Under the pieces are notes generated by a model, which had not been told where the DNA came from, ran no database searches, and was given only the letters and a program-made list of their open reading frames with translations. Position numbers and translations under genes: made by a program. A stretch of DNA of 64,000 nucleotides, taken from assembly GCA_016711225.1 (NCBI GenBank), contig JADJTK010000016.1, positions 32,810 to 96,809 of the forward strand. Reading direction: 5' to 3'. Shown one piece after another: positions 28,516-44,703 of this stretch (position 1 is its first letter; every line of letters starts with the position of its first letter). This DNA is from Opitutaceae bacterium (GTDB lineage: Bacteria; Verrucomicrobiota; Verrucomicrobiia; Opitutales; Opitutaceae).

Positions 28516-28578
28516 AAGGCGGGACCCGTACCCCGGGTGGTGAGGGGCCCGGCAGCTAACTGCCGCCGGCTACCTGAT
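28516..28578 (+). mobile_element. Degenerate group II intron 3' fragment (DV/DVI remnant) at the distal end of the array
   Basis: GGGACCCGTACCCCGGGTGGTGAGGGGCCCGGCAGCTAACTGCCGCCGGCTACCTGAT aligns with the 3' end of the intron at 37030-37116. No 5' part is present. Confidence 0.6.
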
Positions 28579-28590
28579 TCGGCCGGGCTC

Positions 28591-28869
28591 TCATGTCTTC
28601 TTCTCCCACCAACGATCCTTTTGGTCGAGCTCTTGGTCCCGTGGTCCGTGAAACTTCCAATGAACGGCCTCTTCCACGGTGAGGATTCGCAACCCGCAAT
28701 GATTCGCTGAGCAACACCGCGGACCACTACCGTCGACGAGTGAAATGCCCTCGACTCCATCTTCATCATCTTTGCTCCCGGCCAATATGCATAAACAGGG
28801 ATGAAAGGCACAGTCTTCAAAGAGCTCACCGACCTTGATGTCCTTGATGGATTTGACGCGGGTAGGCAT
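28591..28869 (-). CDS. Integron cassette ORF (92 aa, hypothetical), last cassette
   Basis: An ATG at 28869 lies within ORF 28591..28905 (MPTRVKSIKDIKVGELFEDCAFHPC...). The region is AT-richer than the flanks. Confidence 0.5.
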   Translation of the reverse strand: MPTRVKSIKDIKVGELFEDCAFHPCLCILAGSKDDEDGVEGISLVDGSGPRCCSANHCGLRILTVEEAVHWKFHGPRDQELDQKDRWWEKKT

Positions 28870-28882
28870 AGATTCGTTTGCC

Positions 28883-28972
28883 GAGACACTCCGGGTCAGA
28901 GCCACGCCGGACTGAAGAATACTGATTGCAGTGCGGACATTATAGAGGCGTTGGATGTGGGTTTGGTTCGGC
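28883..28972 (-). other. attC site (degenerate R' end)
   Basis: The right end GTTCGGC (28966-28972) and the core CATTATAGAGGCGTTGGATGTGGGTTTGGTT align with the attCs at 37385 and 42615. The left box is degenerate. Confidence 0.55.
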
Positions 28973-29347
28973 TCCTTCCGCTCTCCGGGTTTCTAGATGC
29001 TCACGGAGCAGGTCATTGTAGTGCAGGCAGAATGCCCTGGTCTCGGATACCCATTCGACTCCAGCCGGGCTTGAGGGCGGGATGCCGTGGTCGATGCGCA
29101 CCAGTCCCCCGATTCCGTGCTGACGCAGTATCTCGCGCGATTCTTCCGTCTCAAAACCGGGATACTCCAGCTTTGCGCTTATGAAATTCGAAAAGCCCTA
29201 CAGCCGAAGACGCCCCGCAGCAAGATCGCGGTCAAAAACCTGAGCTGGACTCTCCGCTGGACTCTTCTGCTCGAACGGCGCACGTGCCGACTGGCAACCA
29301 GTGATCGCCGGCAGCAAGAGACATAGAGCAAGGATCAGCGGCTTCAT
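28940..29347 (-). pseudogene. Cassette-encoded lipoprotein interrupted by an in-frame TAG (29198-29200)
   Basis: The ATG at 29347 gives MKPLILALCLLLPAITGC (lipobox), followed by 31 more codons (49 in total) and then TAG. The same frame continues with protein-like sequence (KLEYPGFETEESREILRQHGIGGLVRIDHG...) to the TAA at 28940-28942. The span is 408 nt, i.e. 136 codons. Confidence 0.55.
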
Positions 29348-29352
29348 TCTTT

Positions 29353-29694
29353 TGGCGAACGCTACAAGTGAGACACGGCGGAGAGCGAGCAGTGATTGGA
29401 AGGCGGACACTTCACCGCCGTTGTCTCTGCTGTCTGGTGTGCGCCCGACATGACCGTGAACCAAGAAGTGAAAGTCTTCGATGTGCGAATCCAAAAACAA
29501 GGCATTAGACGAAAGCAACTGCGACGCCGCGAGGTGCCGTGGGAAGGAAGCTGGAGTCAAAACGGCGAGCCCACCATCAGCCGGCGGCGCCCTGCGCGCC
29601 GCGGGCTGATGGAGACTGGAATCGCCCGGTACGGACCCGTACGCCGGGTGGTGTGGGGGCCGGCGGCTAACTGCCGCCGGCTACCCGATTCGGC
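29353..29694 (-). other. attC site interrupted by mini-intron A
   Basis: GGCGAAC (29353-29359) ... GATTGGAAGGCGGAC ... CTGTCTGGT | intron | TCGGC. With the intron removed, the right box reads GTTCGGC. Confidence 0.7.
29439..29689 (+). mobile_element. ORF-less 251-nt group II intron derivative (mini-intron A)
   Basis: It starts GTGCGCCCGACATGACCG. The first ~140 nt match the intron at 35209, followed by a GC hairpin CATCAGCCGGCGGCGC..GCGCCGCGGGCTGATG, then DV (CGCCCGGTACGGACCCGTACGCCGGGTG) and DVI, ending CCCGAT. Confidence 0.75.
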
Positions 29695-42271: not shown

Positions 42272-42607
42272 TTAGGCCGGGGTTTCAGAGACTCGGTAGG
42301 CCAACCCAAACCCGCGCTCGCGGACGAACTCCTCGGCACGGGCGAGAAAGACGAACGCATCTCCAGCCGGAGGCGGATACCGAAAGATGATCAGGATCTT
42401 CATCTTCTTTTCTTTCGCTGCGGGATATTCGCGGAATACGTCTCCGGACTCCAGAAAATCGAGATACGAATTGATCTTCTCTTGCAGCGCCCTGAGGTGC
42501 GCTACGACATCAGACCAATCTCGCTGATCGGCAATCGTGAGATCCACGTCACCGGTCGCACGCTCGGTGCCAATCGCGTCGACGATTTTTGGGTGATCGA
42601 TACTCAT
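42272..42607 (-). CDS. Cassette ORF: hypothetical protein (111 aa)
   Basis: MSIDHPKIVDAIGTERATGDVDLTIADQRDW... The TAA stop (42272-42274) lies inside the GCCTAAC box. Confidence 0.6.
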   Translation of the reverse strand: MSIDHPKIVDAIGTERATGDVDLTIADQRDWSDVVAHLRALQEKINSYLDFLESGDVFREYPAAKEKKMKILIIFRYPPPAGDAFVFLARAEEFVRERGFGLAYRVSETPA

Positions 42608-42614
42608 TCTTTCT

Positions 42615-42694
42615 GCCTAACGCATCAGCTCAGCCACGACGAACCGCGGACTTTGATTGGAAAACGGGCATCGTAGAGTCGTTGGATGTGGCGT
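42615..42694 (-). other. attC site (intact)
   Basis: GCCTAAC (42615-42621) GCATCAGCTCAGCCACGACG ... GATTGGAAAACGGGC ... GTTGGATGTGGCGTCTG GTTCGGC (42688-42694). Confidence 0.8.
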
Positions 42695-42715
42695 CTGGTT
42701 CGGCATTCATTTTGT

Positions 42716-43042
42716 CTACTGTAAGAAGTTCGCATACCATCGACCATCACCCTTGCGCATCGGGACGCACGCAATCTTCCCTTCGCGATTTGTGACTGCG
42801 AGTTCGACGTAGGTCCAACTCGCTTCACCACTGGAGATCATCGTGACTCCACTCCCACAGAACTCGCGACAGCGCTTCTCTTCTTCTCCGAATCGGGACT
42901 CGAACAGCGGCTCTTTCTTCTCGATCCAGCTGACCAGAGCAATCTTCGCGTCGCCGATGACGTGCCGCTGATAAGAGGCCTCGCCGGCCACTCCCAGTAC
43001 CGCGATACCCAGCGCAACGAGAGCTAGCTTTGCGAGCTTCAT
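42716..43042 (-). CDS. First cassette ORF: small secreted or membrane-anchored protein (108 aa)
   Basis: MKLAKLALVALGIAVLGVAGEASYQ... The ATG at 43042 is 7 nt from the GCCGAAC junction box. Confidence 0.6.
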   Translation of the reverse strand: MKLAKLALVALGIAVLGVAGEASYQRHVIGDAKIALVSWIEKKEPLFESRFGEEEKRCREFCGSGVTMISSGEASWTYVELAVTNREGKIACVPMRKGDGRWYANFLQ

Positions 43043-43044
43043 AC

Positions 43045-43251
43045 TTTTGCCGAACAGTGGGATTCACCAGCACTGGGTAACGCTTTTGCCGGAAGGTGCT
43101 GAAGCGGCCGAAAGCGGGGTGCAAATTGGAATCGGTGGACGCAAGTTATTGCGGGCCAACCTCTCAAAACTTTGGGCAACGTTAGCGCTAGGCTCAGGTA
43201 GTGTGTTTTGCCGGTCGAAAAGGCGCCGGCAAAACACATACTCGCTCGGAC
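43045..43251. promoter_or_regulatory. attI / intI-Pc control region
   Basis: The junction box is TTTTGCCGAAC (43045-43055; minus strand GTTCGGCAAAA). TTTTGCCGG recurs at 43084 and 43206 and, inverted, at 43226. A 12-bp perfect inverted repeat GTGTTTTGCCGG-N11-CCGGCAAAACAC spans 43203-43237, just upstream of the intI ATG. Confidence 0.5.
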
Positions 43252-44703
43252 ATGGCCCAAAAGGGGGAAAACGCAGACCGGGAGCGGCGTCCTCTCTCGT
43301 TCCCGAATTGGAAGCAAGCGCTGTCGGCCACCGCTTTGGCACCGGCTGACGAGCAAGCCCAGACGCGCGCGATCATCGCGTTCCTGGGGTTCTGCAAACG
43401 TCGCCATGCACCGGCCTCGATCATTCTGATCAAGGAGTATCTCGCTCATTTGCCGGAGCAAGAAGCGAATACGGCCCGTCTCGTTTTGCGCTGGTTTGTG
43501 TTGTCGGCAGAGCGGCTGAGGGCCGGCGGTGGGACGGCAGCGCCACCGATCGGCCTGCCTTGCGCCGCATCGGCGGCACACCCGGACTGCGAGGCATGGC
43601 CGGTTGCTCATCCTCGCAGCCAAGCCGCCGCGCCGCCGCCGCTGGCCGTCAACGATCAAGGCGGCCCCGAATGGGAGCGCGACCTGATCAAGGCGTGCCG
43701 CGAGCGCCATTTCCTCTGGCGTACAGAAGAGACGTATCGGATGTGGGGTGCGCGGTTTGCCCGTTTTCTGGCGCCGCGTTCGCCGTATGTGGCGGAGGCC
43801 GCGGATCTAGCCGCATTCCTCTCGCGCATGGCGGTGGAAGAGCGGGCCAGTGTCTCGGCGCAGAAGCAGGCGCTCAACGCGCTCGTGTTTCTGATGCAGG
43901 AGGGGCTGCACCGCCAACTCGGCGAGATCGATTTCCATCGTTCGCAGAAGCCTCGGCGGCTGCCGACGGTGCTCAGTAACGGGGAATGCCTGCGACTGTT
44001 TGCTCAGCTCACGGGTGTCACGCAGCTGATGGCGCAATTGGCCTACGGATCGGGTTTGCGATTGCTCGAGCTTCTGCGGCTACGCGTTCACCATCTCGAC
44101 CTAGATCGGCTGCAAGTGCATGTCTTCGGAGGCAAGGGAGACAAGGACCGTGTCACAATCATGCCCGTGGCCTTGGTTGAGCCACTCCGCGACCAACTCG
44201 CACGGGTGCGGGTGATCTATCAGGGCGATCGGGCTGCTGGCCTGCCTGGGGTGTGGCTGCCGGAAGGACTGGCGCGCAAGTATCCGAACGCGGGAACGAG
44301 CTGGGAATGGCAGTGGTTGTTCCCCTCGCGCGAGGTGAGTCTTGATCCGGAGAGCGGGATGGTCCGGCGCCACCACGTCTCCGACACACCGTTTCAGGTG
44401 GCGATCCGTAACGCGGCGCGGGCGGCGCAAATCGACAAACGAGTGACCCCGCATGTGCTGCGCCATTCGTTCGGTACGCATATGATCGAGAACGGCTACG
44501 ATATTCGAACGGTGCAGGAGCTCATGGGCCACGATAGTGTGGAAACCACCATGATCTATCTGCATGTCGTGCAGAAGGGCCTCGGCGCGGTGAGCCCGTT
44601 GGACAAGCTCAAAGGCCACACGCCGCCTCCAAACTCGGGACTCAAAAGCCCGAACTGGCCCATTCCCCCGACCGGATCCGACTCCTCAGCGCCAACGCCT
44701 TAA
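43252..44703 (+). CDS. intI: Integron integrase (IntI-type tyrosine recombinase) with long N-terminal extension
   Basis: IntI-specific segment [41 protein letters not shown]. Catalytic boxes [16 protein letters not shown] and [39 protein letters not shown]. ATG at 43252 (the ORF-track GTG is at 43201). Confidence 0.85.
   Translation: [483 protein letters not shown]

What the first reader, a model, noticed from the sequence alone, without database searches (positions are those of the whole stretch)
28516..44703. Previously unannotatable ~16-kb sedentary chromosomal integron in a high-GC, Verrucomicrobia-like chromosome
The ORF at 43252-44703 carries the IntI-only insertion ([34 protein letters not shown]) together with the R..HxxR..Y boxes. 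About 15 small, AT-richer ORFs lie to its left, all on the opposite strand. Each is followed by an 80-92 nt imperfect palindrome bounded by RYYYAAC and GTTRRRY. In four cassettes the TAA stop lies inside GCCTAAC, which is a hallmark of integron cassettes. Almost all cassette proteins are unrecognisable, so this is a bank of unexplored accessory functions. Antiphage or stress functions are a reasonable but untested guess.
Basis: partly seen in the sequence, partly recalled or inferred. Interest (0 to 1): 0.8.

Follow-up and report, generated by a model that had tools for sequence, protein, structure and literature searches.

The report
Chromosomal integron riddled with attC-targeting parasites
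This is a real but ordinary chromosomal integron (a gene-cassette capture system) in an Opitutaceae (Verrucomicrobiota) genome; about 40% of its array is introns and insertion sequences that target the cassette recombination sites, and its integrase has an extra N-terminal domain.

Summary
The ORF at 43252-44703 (+) is an integron integrase: TIGR02249 scores 361 bits (cut-off 265), and it aligns end to end with VchIntIA (PDB 2a3v), including the IntI-only insertion. To its left are 15 cassettes on the minus strand (43054 to about 28500). They are lower in GC than the flanks and are separated by attC sites with R''/L''/L'/R' pairing and covariation.

A covariance model built from these sites hits only the array within the window. 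In 80 related loci it gives 174 hits, all upstream of intI and on the opposite strand. Integrons are therefore common across Opitutaceae. Their integrases are already named "integron integrase" by NCBI and JGI, so "previously unannotatable" is wrong.

- Six of the 15 attC sites carry a group IIC-attC intron at the R'' GT^T position: one full copy (1,908 nt) and five ORF-less remnants.
- One attC carries two IS110-family elements. Together, introns and IS make up about 43% of the array.
- The integrase has a conserved N-terminal domain of about 90 aa, absent from Pfam and NCBIfam models, that resembles a second core-binding domain.

No cassette matches a known defence family.

Verdict: a new member of a known kind, of moderate interest.

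The parts
43252..44703 (+). intI, integron integrase of 483 aa (N-terminal extra domain, disordered linker, canonical IntI core)
   Evidence: TIGR02249 scores 361 bits against a cut-off of 265; XerC and XerD models score 122 and 119 bits, far below their cut-offs. It aligns with VchIntIA (2a3v) at E 3e-72 over residues 166-470 of the 500-aa ORF, with no gap at the IntI-specific insertion. R270, K295, H401, R404, H427 and Y436 are invariant in 54 homologues. The ATG is conserved.
43252..43530 (+). Extra N-terminal helical domain of IntI (about 90 aa, five helices), followed by a disordered Pro/Ala-rich linker to about 43650
   Evidence: It is conserved in 65 of 80 related loci and in all 120 top database homologues by length and coverage. 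AlphaFold pLDDT is about 95 for residues 11-90, and the linker (94-125) is below 50. There is no Pfam or NCBIfam hit above threshold. The resemblance to tyrosine-recombinase core-binding domains is weak.
43053..43251 (.). attI region and intI 5' leader. The crossover GTT (minus strand) is at 43055-43053. Three TTTTGCCGG repeats lie at 43084, 43206 and 43226(-), and a 13-nt inverted repeat at 43202-43238
   Evidence: Conservation among the window, L003, L002 and L001 starts exactly at AAC 43053-43055; to the left, each genome has a different first cassette. All three TTTTGCCGG copies in the 64 kb fall here. GTTCGGC at the junction is complementary to the R'' GCCGAAC of cassette 1.
42621..43054 (-). 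Cassette 1: ORF 42716-43042 (108 aa, hydrophobic N-terminus); attC 42615-42704
   Evidence: 88 bits. No Pfam hit.
40621..42620 (-). Cassette 2: ORF 42272-42607 (111 aa, DUF6572). Its attC is split into R'' 42271-42277, body 40620-40697 and the end of R' 38918-38922
   Evidence: Pfam DUF6572, E 2e-29. The reconstructed attC matches its family members. The model hit at 40616-40705 scores 66 bits.
40698..42270 (+). IS-A: IS110-type insertion sequence (5' non-coding region 40698-40989, transposase 40990-42240), inserted directly after the R'' GCCTAAC of cassette 2's attC
   Evidence: Pfam DEDD_Tnp_IS110 plus Transposase_20. Identity to IS110-family transposases on plasmids is 43-47%.
38923..40619 (+). 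IS-B: IS1111-type insertion sequence (subterminal inverted repeats TATAGATGCGTG/CACGCATCTATA; transposase 39057-39734 then frameshift to 40204; 3' non-coding region 40205-40619), inserted in the R' GT^TAGCC of the same attC
   Evidence: Pfam domains are split over two frames. The same junction is found on a different attC in relative L001. The layout of subterminal repeats plus a 3' non-coding region is as described for IS1111 (PMC11187229).
38172..38922 (-). Cassette 3: ORF 38251-38907 (218 aa, DUF4304); attC 38166-38256. A promoter-like site at 38955-38926 inside the IS-B end faces this ORF
   Evidence: 86 bits. TTGCCA-N18-TATAGT matches 10 of 12 positions.
37784..38171 (-). Cassette 4: ORF 37862-38161 (99 aa); attC 37778-37867
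   Evidence: 92 bits.
37391..37783 (-). Cassette 5: ORF 37469-37765 (98 aa); attC 37385-37474
   Evidence: 90 bits.
35130..37390 (-). Cassette 6: ORF 37136-37378 (80 aa). Its attC is split into R'' GGCCA 37117-37121 and AC plus the rest at 35124-35208
   Evidence: 68 bits. R'' GGCCAAC is complementary to the upstream R' GTTGGCC.
35209..37116 (+). Full-length group IIC-attC-type intron (1,908 nt; GTGCG...CCCGAT). The reverse transcriptase/maturase ORF lies within 35374-37032 (likely start about 35671), with no endonuclease domain
   Evidence: Rfam RF02001 scores 124 bits and RF01998 40 bits. Pfam RVT_1 plus GIIM. Boundaries come from the alignment of copies. The closest plasmid relatives (46% identity) are introns inside class 1 integron arrays, on the strand opposite the cassettes.
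34081..35129 (-). Cassette 7: ORF 34476-35087 (203 aa, stop inside intron DNA). Its attC is split into 34495-34499 and 34075-34158
34159..34494 (+). Mini-intron A (336 nt): the first ~190 nt and last ~150 nt of the intron, with no ORF
   Evidence: Its 5' 130 nt are 97% and its 3' 100 nt 100% identical to the full copy. Rfam RF02001 scores 42 bits.
33108..34080 (-). Cassette 8: ORF 33415-34074 (219 aa, signal-peptide-like N-terminus, stop inside intron DNA). Its attC is split into 33438-33442 and 33102-33186
33187..33437 (+). Mini-intron B (251 nt): 5' ~135 nt, a 17-bp hairpin, then domains V and VI
   Evidence: (I3).
32746..33107 (-). Cassette 9: ORF 32839-33093 (84 aa); attC 32740-32829 (degenerate R'' GCCGCTC)
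   Evidence: 79 bits.
32171..32745 (-). Cassette 10: ORF 32258-32731 (157 aa, signal-peptide-like); attC 32165-32250
   Evidence: 34 bits.
31251..32170 (-). Cassette 11: GC-rich (65%), with no convincing ORF; attC 31245-31336
   Evidence: The attC was found by the model although it was not in the training set (E 9e-6). No Pfam hits in any frame. Parts of it match metagenome array L122 at 85-91%.
30190..31250 (-). Cassette 12: ORF 30809-31240 (143 aa, membrane-like). Only its R'' stub (30832-30836) is left; then come intron 3' fragment D (about 30731-30831, + strand), host REP-like repeats (30370-30740) and the remnant of an IS-B-like end (30186-30297)
   Evidence: fragment D is 89% identical to the intron 3' end.
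29360..30189 (-). Cassette 13: ORF 29667-30176 (169 aa, GrpB). Its attC is split into 29690-29694 and 29354-29438. A promoter-like site lies at 30224-30195
   Evidence: Pfam GrpB, E 9e-15. Also.
29439..29689 (+). Mini-intron C (251 nt), with the same internal deletion and hairpin as B
   Evidence: B and C are 94% identical, whereas the rest of their two attC sites is 76% identical and the upstream ORF ends are unrelated.
28887..29359 (-). Cassette 14: lipoprotein-like ORF broken by a stop or frameshift (29198-29344 and 28993-29154); attC 28880-28972 (degenerate R' GTCTCGGC)
   Evidence: (59 bits).
28500..28886 (-). Cassette 15: ORF 28591-28866 (91 aa); R'' stub at 28579-28583, then the degenerate intron 3' fragment E (about 28522-28578, + strand). 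This is the end of the array
   Evidence: fragment E is 70% identical to the intron 3' end.
28069..28142 (+). tRNA-Gly(CCC), about 400 bp beyond the last cassette

Best explanation
The region is a complete chromosomal integron of an Opitutaceae (Verrucomicrobiota) bacterium.

**How the platform works**
- IntI (43252-44703) is a tyrosine recombinase. It should recombine the folded bottom strand of a cassette's attC hairpin with the double-stranded attI next to its own gene (crossover at GTT 43055-43053). It should excise cassettes by attC x attC recombination.
- This has stacked 15 foreign, lower-GC, mostly single-gene cassettes on the strand opposite intI.
- Each cassette still carries the footprint of that chemistry. 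The six bases after the G of the upstream R' are the complement of the cassette's own R''.

**Colonisation by parasites of the folded or conserved attC**
- A group IIC-attC intron retrohomes into the bottom strand at GT^T of R'', using the attC hairpin as its 5'-exon stem-loop. One intact copy and five ORF-less, ribozyme-incomplete remnants are present.
- Two IS110-family elements are present, of the kind known to be RNA-guided. IS-B sits at GT^T of R' and IS-A sits just after R''.
- All of these lie antisense to the cassettes.

**Inferred consequences**
- The seven occupied sites can no longer fold into a recombinogenic attC, so those cassette junctions are locked.
- Read-through transcription is probably interrupted.
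- Four ORFs have had their stop codon replaced by one inside the intron.

**Shown versus inferred**
- Shown: the identity of IntI, the attC structure, the cassette boundaries, and the identities and insertion points of the elements.
- Inferred: recombination activity, expression, locking of cassettes, and any cassette function.
For: **IntI**
- TIGR02249 above its cut-off, Xer models below theirs.
- full-length alignment to VchIntIA, including the extra domain.
- catalytic residues invariant.

**attC sites**
- 83% of cells paired against about 30% when slid; covariation reached by 0 of 500 shuffles.
- 13 sites, only in the array and only on the minus strand, including one untrained site.
- the same model finds 174 sites in relatives, all upstream of and antisense to intI.

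**Cassette boundaries**
- The upstream R' is perfectly complementary to the cassette's own R'' for cassettes 1, 2, 3 (after removing IS-B), 4, 5, 6, 7 and 8. There is one mismatch for cassettes 10, 12 and 14.
- The attI boundary is fixed by comparison with three relatives.

**Context**
- GC drops over the array.
- The flanks are chromosomal: cydA, histidine kinases, a TonB-dependent receptor and an outer-membrane efflux protein.
- No cassette protein is shared with the arrays of 80 relatives, as expected for cassette turnover.

**Intron**
-.
- The insertion point TGGT/T in R'' equals the published TTGT/T (PMC7923331).
- The same intron (86% identity) sits at the same position in relative L003.

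**Insertion sequences**
-, plus PMC11187229.
Against: - No sigma-70-like Pc promoter or terminator was found in the attI region, so cassette expression is unproven.
- Flank synteny with the closest relatives was not detected. Vertical, 'sedentary' inheritance at a fixed locus is therefore not shown.
- Seven of the 15 attC sites are interrupted and several R boxes are degenerate, so much of the array may no longer be mobile.
- The published IntegronFinder attC model could not be run. My model was trained on sites from this same array, and only the untrained site and the hits in other genomes are independent.
- No recombination, splicing or transposition activity can be tested here.
Confidence: 0.93

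Rival explanations
1. It is a largely fossilised integron. IntI is intact, but the array is a decaying relic whose cassettes are mostly immobilised, and partly pseudogenised, by intron and IS insertions. It would then no longer serve as a working bank of accessory genes. This refines the main explanation rather than excluding it.
For: - Seven of 15 attC sites are interrupted, and two keep only the R'' stub.
- Cassette 14's ORF is broken, and cassette 11 has no ORF.
- Host REP-like repeats have accumulated inside the array.
- The IS-B transposase is frameshifted.
- Intron fragments D and E are degenerate.
Against: - intI has no frameshift, and all catalytic residues are conserved.
- The five cassettes nearest attI have well-formed attC sites or only IS interruptions.
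- Relatives have entirely different cassette content, so turnover is ongoing in the lineage.
- The full-length intron and IS-A look intact, which suggests recent activity.
Confidence: 0.3
2. It is a recently acquired or mobile integron: part of a genomic island or transposon inserted next to tRNA-Gly, rather than an ancestral, sedentary chromosomal integron.
For: - The whole stretch 28.0-45.0 kb, including intI (62% GC), is lower in GC than the flanks.
- The array ends about 400 bp from a tRNA-Gly gene.
- No flank synteny with relatives was found.
Against: - There are no transposition, conjugation or phage genes at either border, and no terminal repeats bound the unit. The repeats shared between 30.6 kb, 28.3 kb and 45.0 kb also occur at 20.3, 27.7 and 48.7 kb, so they are dispersed host repeats.
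- IntI identity falls off with taxonomy within one family: unnamed Opitutaceae/Verrucomicrobia MAGs 81-83%, Oleiharenicola and Lacunisphaera 66-70%, Nibricoccus 59-66%.
- Nearly all of those genomes have arrays with the same attC type.
- attI and the integrase N-terminal domain are clade-specific.
Confidence: 0.12
3. It is not an integron: a XerC/D-like or phage-type recombinase that happens to sit beside REP-like palindromes and small ORFs.
For: None beyond the generic tyrosine-recombinase domains.
Against: - Xer models score about 120 bits against cut-offs of 330 or more, while the integron-integrase model passes.
- The IntI-specific insertion is present.
- The palindromes have attC architecture, strand bias, cassette-specific R'/R'' complementarity and covariation.
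Confidence: 0.01

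Closest known systems
Sedentary chromosomal integrons, e.g. the Vibrio cholerae superintegron (VchIntIA/IntI4, PDB 2a3v) and the Xanthomonas and Pseudomonas chromosomal integrons
   Same: Divergent intI and attI; an array of promoterless, mostly unknown-function cassettes on the opposite strand; array-specific, related attC sites with R''/L''/L'/R' boxes and an extrahelical base in L''; lower GC than the host; an IntI core that aligns end to end with VchIntIA.
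   Different: The host is Verrucomicrobiota (Opitutaceae). There are 15 cassettes rather than more than 100. The attC sites fall into about three sub-families rather than one VCR-like repeat. IntI carries an extra N-terminal domain of about 90 aa plus a linker, giving 483 aa against about 320. A conserved chromosomal position was not shown.
Group IIC-attC introns (S.ma.I2, E.c.I7, Kl.pn.I1, Ge.s.I1; Quiroga/Leon/Roy/Centron)
   Same: Inserted in the bottom strand of attC at R'' (published TTGT/T, here TGGT/T). Antisense to the cassettes. The intron-encoded protein has RT and maturase domains and no endonuclease domain. The nearest plasmid relatives are integron-borne introns.
   Different: Protein identity to those introns is only about 46%. 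[quoted passage not shown] Five copies are ORF-less and ribozyme-incomplete (336, 251 and 251 nt plus two 3' stubs). Membership of the IIC-attC clade was not tested with a tree.
IS1111-attC group (ISPa21, ISKpn4, ISPst6) and other RNA-guided IS110/IS1111 elements
   Same: IS-B has a DEDD transposase, subterminal inverted repeats and a long 3' non-coding region. It inserts at one end of attC in a fixed orientation, at the identical position in two different attC sites in two genomes (PMC11187229).
   Different: Identity to any plasmid-borne IS110-family transposase is 51% or less, and no named IS1111-attC element appears among the top hits. The IS-B transposase is frameshifted. IS-A has IS110-type organisation (5' non-coding region), and attC specificity is not established because only one copy was seen. 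Guide-RNA/target complementarity was inconclusive.

Membership tests
Integron (complete: intI + attI + attC array) | Tyrosine recombinase of the IntI clade carrying the IntI-specific additional domain | tested here: met
   TIGR02249 scores 361 bits (cut-off 265); XerC, XerD and XerA models are far below their cut-offs. The alignment to VchIntIA across the insertion has no gaps.
Integron (complete: intI + attI + attC array) | Catalytic R-K-H-R-H-Y residues intact | tested here: met
   R270, K295, H401, R404, H427 and Y436 are invariant in the 54-sequence alignment and aligned with VchIntIA.
Integron (complete: intI + attC array) | Cluster of attC sites (R''-L''...L'-R', imperfect palindrome with an extrahelical base), same strand, near intI | tested here: met
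   Pair counts and covariation. The model hits are confined to the array, and 174 hits in relatives are all antisense to and upstream of intI. The published IntegronFinder model itself was not available.
Integron (complete: intI + attI + attC array) | attI next to intI with a GTT crossover; cassette boundaries showing hybrid R' boxes | tested here: met
   The comparative boundary falls exactly at AAC/GTT 43053-43055. R'/R'' complementarity holds across cassettes.
Integron (complete: intI + attI + attC array) | Pc promoter driving the cassettes | tested here: inconclusive
   No sigma-70 consensus match in 42900-43400. Verrucomicrobial promoters may not fit this consensus.
Integron (complete: intI + attI + attC array) | IntI-catalysed cassette excision and integration | not testable with these tools
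   Needs an experiment.
Sedentary chromosomal integron | Chromosomal location without an associated transposon or plasmid backbone | tested here: met
   The flanks encode cytochrome bd oxidase, histidine kinases, a TonB-dependent receptor, an outer-membrane efflux protein and methyltransferases. No transposition or conjugation genes were seen outside the array.
Sedentary chromosomal integron | Lineage-wide, vertically inherited intI at a conserved locus | tested here: inconclusive
   IntI plus arrays are present in dozens of Opitutaceae genomes, with identity decreasing with taxonomic distance. No flank synteny was found, and no tree was built.
Sedentary chromosomal integron | Large array with homogeneous attC sites | tested here: inconclusive
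   There are 15 cassettes. The attC sites show 69% mean column identity, fall into about three sub-families, and mostly share a TTCCAATC loop motif.
Group IIC-attC intron | Group II ribozyme plus an RT/maturase protein lacking an endonuclease domain | tested here: met
   RF02001 scores 124 bits and RF01998 40 bits. Pfam RVT_1 plus GIIM only. Domain V with a CGC triad and 2-nt bulge, and domain VI with a bulged A 7 nt from the 3' end, were read from the sequence (interpretation from general knowledge of group IIC introns).
[quoted passage not shown]
   All six copies lie on the plus strand at ...CTGGT^T(C/G)G.. of R''. Relative L003 has the same insertion point. The published consensus is in PMC7923331.
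Group IIC-attC intron | Intron-encoded protein falls in the monophyletic IIC-attC clade | not tested
   Only the best-hit context is available: 46% identity to introns inside class 1 integron arrays. No phylogeny was made.
IS1111 family, attC-targeting (IS-B) | DEDD transposase, subterminal inverted repeats, 3' non-coding region | tested here: met
   The criteria are from PMC11187229. The transposase is frameshifted here.
IS1111 family, attC-targeting (IS-B) | Same insertion position and orientation in independent attC sites | tested here: met
   Window site 40619/40620 and L001 position 108 have identical junctions on different attC bodies. A remnant of the other end lies at a third cassette boundary, 30186-30297.
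   PADLOC gave no hit at E < 0.001 for 14 cassette ORFs; the broken cassette-14 ORF was not scanned. NCBIfam gave nothing above cut-off.

The most novel reading that the evidence does not exclude
The Opitutaceae/PVC integron integrases form a three-domain IntI variant. In front of the canonical core-binding and catalytic domains sits a conserved extra N-terminal helical domain of about 90 aa, probably an ancient duplicate of the core-binding (SAM-like) domain, tethered by a disordered linker. It is absent from current Pfam and NCBIfam models, and I found no description of it in the searchable literature. It may give these integrases an additional DNA-binding function, for example recognition of the clade-conserved TTTTGCCGG repeats that occur only in the attI/intI-leader region. 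That would mean a different way of recognising or regulating attI than in the proteobacterial model integrons.
Probability: 0.4. Interest if true: 0.55.

Novelty: new member of a known kind. Interest (0 to 1): 0.38.

Why it matters
- **Textbook integron outside Proteobacteria.** This is a well-resolved integron from a poorly studied phylum. The same system, with the same attC type, is present across dozens of Opitutaceae genomes, so the family is a usable natural model for non-proteobacterial integrons.
- **Heavy parasite load.** One array carries three different attC-targeting mobile elements at once: a group IIC-attC intron with degraded ORF-less copies, an IS1111-type element and an IS110-type element. 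They make up about 43% of the array. The literature describes introns in integrons as puzzlingly rare, so this array could help test ideas about intron-mediated cassette genesis and about how parasites immobilise cassettes.
- **Integrase N-terminal domain.** It is a concrete, testable architectural difference from all experimentally studied IntIs.
- **Limits.** None of this changes how integrons are understood. The cassette functions remain unknown.

Tried and rejected
- **Strict pattern scan.** RYYYAAC...GTTRRRY plus folding found only 4 sites. A relaxed AAC...GTT hairpin scan gave 77 mostly spurious hits across this high-GC window. I abandoned both in favour of reading the intergenic sequence and building a covariance model.
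- **Single-sequence folding.** Folding energies of single attC sites against mononucleotide shuffles were mostly not significant (z from -4.8 to +1.4). The evidence for structure therefore rests on the alignment.
- **Palindrome at 31302-31390.** The 89-nt palindrome GCTCAAC...GTTGAGC was first taken as the attC of cassette 11. The model instead supports 31245-31336. Which one is used remains uncertain.
- **Terminal repeats of a mobile unit.** Repeats shared between 28.3, 30.6 and 45.0 kb are dispersed host repeats also found at 20.3, 27.7 and 48.7 kb. Rejected.
- **Guide-RNA/target complementarity.** A few 7-8-mers are shared between the IS non-coding regions and their attC targets, but about 3 are expected by chance. 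Inconclusive.
- **Outward promoter in the retained intron 5' end.** A TCTAAT -10 box like the one in the published P1out is present, but there is no acceptable -35, and the scan tool did not call it. Not claimed.
- **Fold of the N-terminal domain.** Foldseek against the PDB found nothing significant (best E 1.6). Only TM-scores of 0.5-0.6 to recombinase core-binding domains were seen.
- **Tyrosine-recombinase fragment in cassette 11.** This impression was not supported by Pfam in any frame. Dropped.
- **Source genome.** An exact-match look-up of cassette 8's protein found no public record. The source genome is not among the 185,579 species representatives (best IntI identity 83%).
- **The 251-nt mini-intron in metagenomes.** An exact search for its junction found nothing.

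Full report
**1. Observation**

The ORF ending at 44703 contains the quoted motif. Its ATG at 43252 is conserved in the three closest relatives. To its left, down to about 28500, GC drops from 65-71% to 51-65%. Small minus-strand ORFs there are separated by imperfect palindromes of about 90 nt. The coordinates and the count of about 15 ORFs are correct. The TAA stop lies inside the R'' box in four cassettes: GCCTAAC at 42277, 37867 and 37474, and GGCTAAC at 38256.

**2. Integrase**

- NCBIfam TIGR02249 (integron integrase) scores 361 bits against a cut-off of 265. XerC, XerD and XerA models score 122-144 bits against cut-offs of 220-335.
- The best solved structure is VchIntIA (2a3v, E 3e-72). 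The alignment runs from residue 166 to 470 of the 500-aa ORF, with no gap across the IntI-specific insertion. The next best is XerA at 5e-28.
- The catalytic residues R, K, H, R, H and Y are invariant in 54 homologues.
- The refutation condition 'groups with Xer, lacks the insertion' is therefore not met.

**3. attC sites**

- I aligned 12 sites, restoring the interrupted ones by removing the inserted element, and wrote the R-box, CAG/CTG and L-box pairs by hand.
- 83% of cells form standard pairs, against 28-36% when the 3' partners are slid by 1-3 columns.
- 28 cells show changes on both sides, against 13.6 in shuffles. The covariation score is 0.256 against 0.117, reached by 0 of 500 shuffles.
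- L'' carries one extra base relative to L', which is the classical extrahelical base.
- A covariance model built from this alignment finds 13 sites in the window. All are on the minus strand between 28880 and 42704. One of them, 31245-31336 (E 9e-6), was not used for training. Nothing else in the 64 kb scores below E = 0.06.
- The independent test is the relatives. In 80 loci around IntI homologues from other genomes, the model gives 174 hits at E < 1e-3, every one antisense to intI and upstream of it.

**4. Cassette boundaries**

- The integron reaction leaves a hybrid R' box: the G comes from the upstream cassette and TTRRRY from the downstream one.
- The six bases after that G are the exact complement of the cassette's own R'' for cassettes 1, 2, 3 (after removing IS-B), 4, 5, 6, 7 and 8. 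There is one mismatch for cassettes 10, 12 and 14.
- The first cassette starts at G|TTCGGC (43055/43054), and its own R'' is GCCGAAC.
- When the intI-proximal region is aligned with L003, L002 and L001, conservation begins exactly at that AAC/GTT; to the left each genome has different sequence. This fixes attI at about 43053-43251.
- All three TTTTGCCGG copies in the whole window lie in this region. Two of them form an inverted repeat just upstream of the intI ATG.

**5.

*a. Group II intron copies*
- Rfam finds a group II intron on the plus strand (RF02001, 124 bits), and Pfam finds its RT/maturase ORF.
- Aligning the copies defines the element as GTGCG...CTACCCGAT, 35209-37116.
- It interrupts the R'' of cassette 6's attC between GGCCA and AC. 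On the bottom strand this is CTGGT^TGGCC, the published IIC-attC target TTGT/T in R'' (PMC7923331).
- Five more copies sit at the same position and in the same orientation in other attC sites: mini-A (34159-34494, 336 nt), mini-B (33187-33437, 251 nt), mini-C (29439-29689, 251 nt), and 3' stubs D (about 30731-30831) and E (about 28522-28578).
- The minis keep the first 135-190 nt plus domains V and VI, but lack most of domains I-III and the ORF. They cannot be self-sufficient ribozymes.
- B and C share the same deletion junction and a 17-bp hairpin. They are 94% identical, whereas the rest of their attC sites is 76% identical and the neighbouring ORF ends are unrelated. How the same deletion form reached two sites is unresolved: duplication with the attC, recombination, or mobilisation in trans.
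- The stop codons of the ORFs in cassettes 7, 8, 12 and 13 lie inside the inverted intron 3' end, giving C-terminal tails such as ...NRVAGGS.
- The nearest plasmid relatives of the intron protein (46% identity) are introns sitting antisense inside class 1 integron arrays, for example between aadA1, fosE and blaVIM-2 in P. putida pVIM.
- The closest long relative, L003, has the same intron (86% identity) twice, at the same attC position.

*b. Two IS110-family elements, both in cassette 2's attC*
- IS-A (40698-42270) has a 5' non-coding region and an intact DEDD transposase. It sits directly after R'' GCCTAAC.
- IS-B (38923-40619) has subterminal inverted repeats, a 3' non-coding region and a frameshifted transposase. 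It sits in R' at GT^TAGCC.
- The IS-B layout is that of the IS1111 family, some members of which target one end of attC sites (PMC11187229).
- Relative L001 has an IS-B-like right end joined at the identical position to a different attC. A remnant of the other end lies at the start of cassette 13. This lineage is therefore attC-R'-specific.
- The two best sigma-70-like matches in the array (10 of 12 positions) lie in that IS end and in its remnant. Both face the downstream cassette. These are consensus matches only.
- Introns plus IS add up to about 6.2 kb of the roughly 14.5 kb array.

**6. Cassette content**

- Three of 15 cassettes have Pfam families: DUF6572, DUF4304 and GrpB.
- No NCBIfam model passes its cut-off, and no PADLOC defence family is hit at E < 0.001.
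- Several proteins have signal-peptide or membrane-like N-termini.
- Cassette 14 is broken, and cassette 11 is GC-rich with no ORF that hits anything.
- None of the proteins occurs in the sampled arrays of 80 relatives, which fits rapid cassette turnover.

**7. Host and context**

- IntI homologues with 60-83% identity come almost only from Opitutaceae and other Verrucomicrobiota (Oleiharenicola, Lacunisphaera, Nibricoccus, Opitutus). A few are from other PVC bacteria. The source genome itself is not among the species representatives.
- The flanks encode cytochrome bd oxidase, histidine kinases, a TonB-dependent receptor, an outer-membrane efflux protein and methyltransferases.
- A tRNA-Gly lies about 400 bp beyond the last cassette.
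- No synteny of the right flank with any relative was detected. 'Chromosomal' is therefore supported, and 'sedentary at an ancestral locus' is not demonstrated.

**8. The integrase N-terminal domain**

- The ORF is 483 aa, about 160 aa longer than model IntIs.
- The first ~90 aa are conserved in 65 of 80 loci. The 120 best database homologues are 417-724 aa long with about 90% query coverage.
- AlphaFold models this domain as five helices with pLDDT of about 95, followed by a disordered linker.
- No Pfam or NCBIfam model covers it.
- Three weak, concordant signals point to a divergent second core-binding (SAM-like) domain:
  - Phage_int_SAM_4 is hit in 5 of 28 members, down to E 8e-4.
  - hhalign against the protein's own core-binding domain gives E 0.004, but with a probability of only 8%.
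  - Foldseek TM-scores of 0.5-0.6 to 3nrw, 5vfz and 2oxo are seen without significant E-values.
- An exhaustive search finds the domain in 267 representative clusters, always near the N-terminus.
- I found no paper describing it.

**9. Comparison and novelty**

- Integrons in Verrucomicrobia were already listed by Cury et al. 2016 (PMC4889954). NCBI and JGI annotate these proteins as integron integrases.
- IIC-attC introns and attC-targeting IS1111 elements are known kinds (PMC3001079, PMC7923331, PMC11187229).
- The locus is therefore a new member of a known kind.
- Three features are unusual:
  - the density of attC-specific parasites in one array;
  - the degraded ORF-less intron copies;
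  - the clade-specific extra domain on IntI.
- In passing, the intron's domain V motif occurs in at least 120 metagenome contigs. Six of them carry a 645-nt, ribozyme-complete, ORF-less version in at least four different flanking contexts. ORF-less derivatives of this intron lineage therefore do spread in nature.

**10. Verdict**

The claim of unannotatability and the high interest score are not. Interest is about 0.38.

Noticed in passing
window 43252-43530 (and L001-L066, just upstream of the IntI core): IntI carries a conserved extra N-terminal five-helix domain of about 90 aa plus a disordered linker. No Pfam or NCBIfam model covers it. It weakly resembles a second core-binding (SAM-like) domain and occurs in 267 representative protein clusters, always near the N-terminus.
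   Followed up: partly
window 43084-43092, 43206-43214, 43226-43234: All three TTTTGCCGG copies in the 64 kb lie in the attI/intI-leader region. They are conserved in three relatives, and two form a 13-nt inverted repeat just upstream of the intI start. They are candidate binding sites for IntI or a regulator.
   Followed up: partly
window 33187-33437 and 29439-29689: Two 251-nt mini-introns share an identical internal deletion and hairpin and are 94% identical, although the attC sites they sit in are only 76% identical. Mini-B differs from mini-C and the full intron by two adjacent compensatory base-pair changes in the domain VI stem (GGCGG/CCGCC against GGGAG/CTCCC). The same stem variant is seen in metagenome contig L151.
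   Followed up: partly
L082/L104, L130, L176, L182 (metagenome contigs): A 645-nt ORF-less but ribozyme-complete version of the same intron lineage occurs in at least four different flanking contexts. Some lie inside attC arrays, with TTGT/T or TGGT/T junctions. This suggests ORF-less introns mobilised in trans.
   Followed up: partly
window 38926-38955 and 30195-30224 (minus strand): The two best sigma-70-like promoter matches in the array (TTGCCA/TTGTCA-N18-TATAGT) lie in the outward-facing end of IS-B and in a remnant of a similar IS end. Each points into the next cassette ORF (DUF4304 and GrpB).
   Followed up: partly
window 34476-34500, 33415-33445, 30809-30840, 29667-29700: Four cassette ORFs run across the intron insertion point and stop inside the inverted intron 3' end, which gives them similar C-terminal tails (...NRVAGGS, ...SGSRR).
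   Followed up: partly
window 30370-30740, 28344-28397, 45001-45228, 20298-20362, 27736-27805, 48688-48717: Short dispersed repeats of the type CCACAGAGGGCACGGAGG occur in non-coding DNA both inside the distal array and elsewhere in the window. They look like host REP-like elements.
   Followed up: partly
window 31251-32170: Cassette 11 is 65% GC and has no ORF with any family hit. Parts of it match metagenome contig L122, another intron-bearing array, at 85-91% identity. An 89-nt perfect-ended palindrome GCTCAAC...GTTGAGC (31302-31390) overlaps its attC.
   Followed up: partly
window 40205-40619 and 40698-40989: These are the long non-coding regions of IS-B (3') and IS-A (5'; the latter with a 23-bp hairpin at 40709-40775). 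They lie where seekRNA or bridge RNA guides are encoded in IS1111/IS110 elements. Shared 7-8-mers with the attC target were no more than expected by chance.
   Followed up: partly
window 28069-28142 and 587-679: tRNA-Gly(CCC) lies about 400 bp beyond the last cassette. ARAGORN also calls a 93-nt tRNA-Val(GAC) at 587-679, which Rfam did not report at its gathering threshold.
   Followed up: no
window 28993-29344: Cassette 14 encodes a lipoprotein-like N-terminus (LLLPAITGC) that is interrupted by a stop or frameshift, so it is probably a pseudogene.
   Followed up: no
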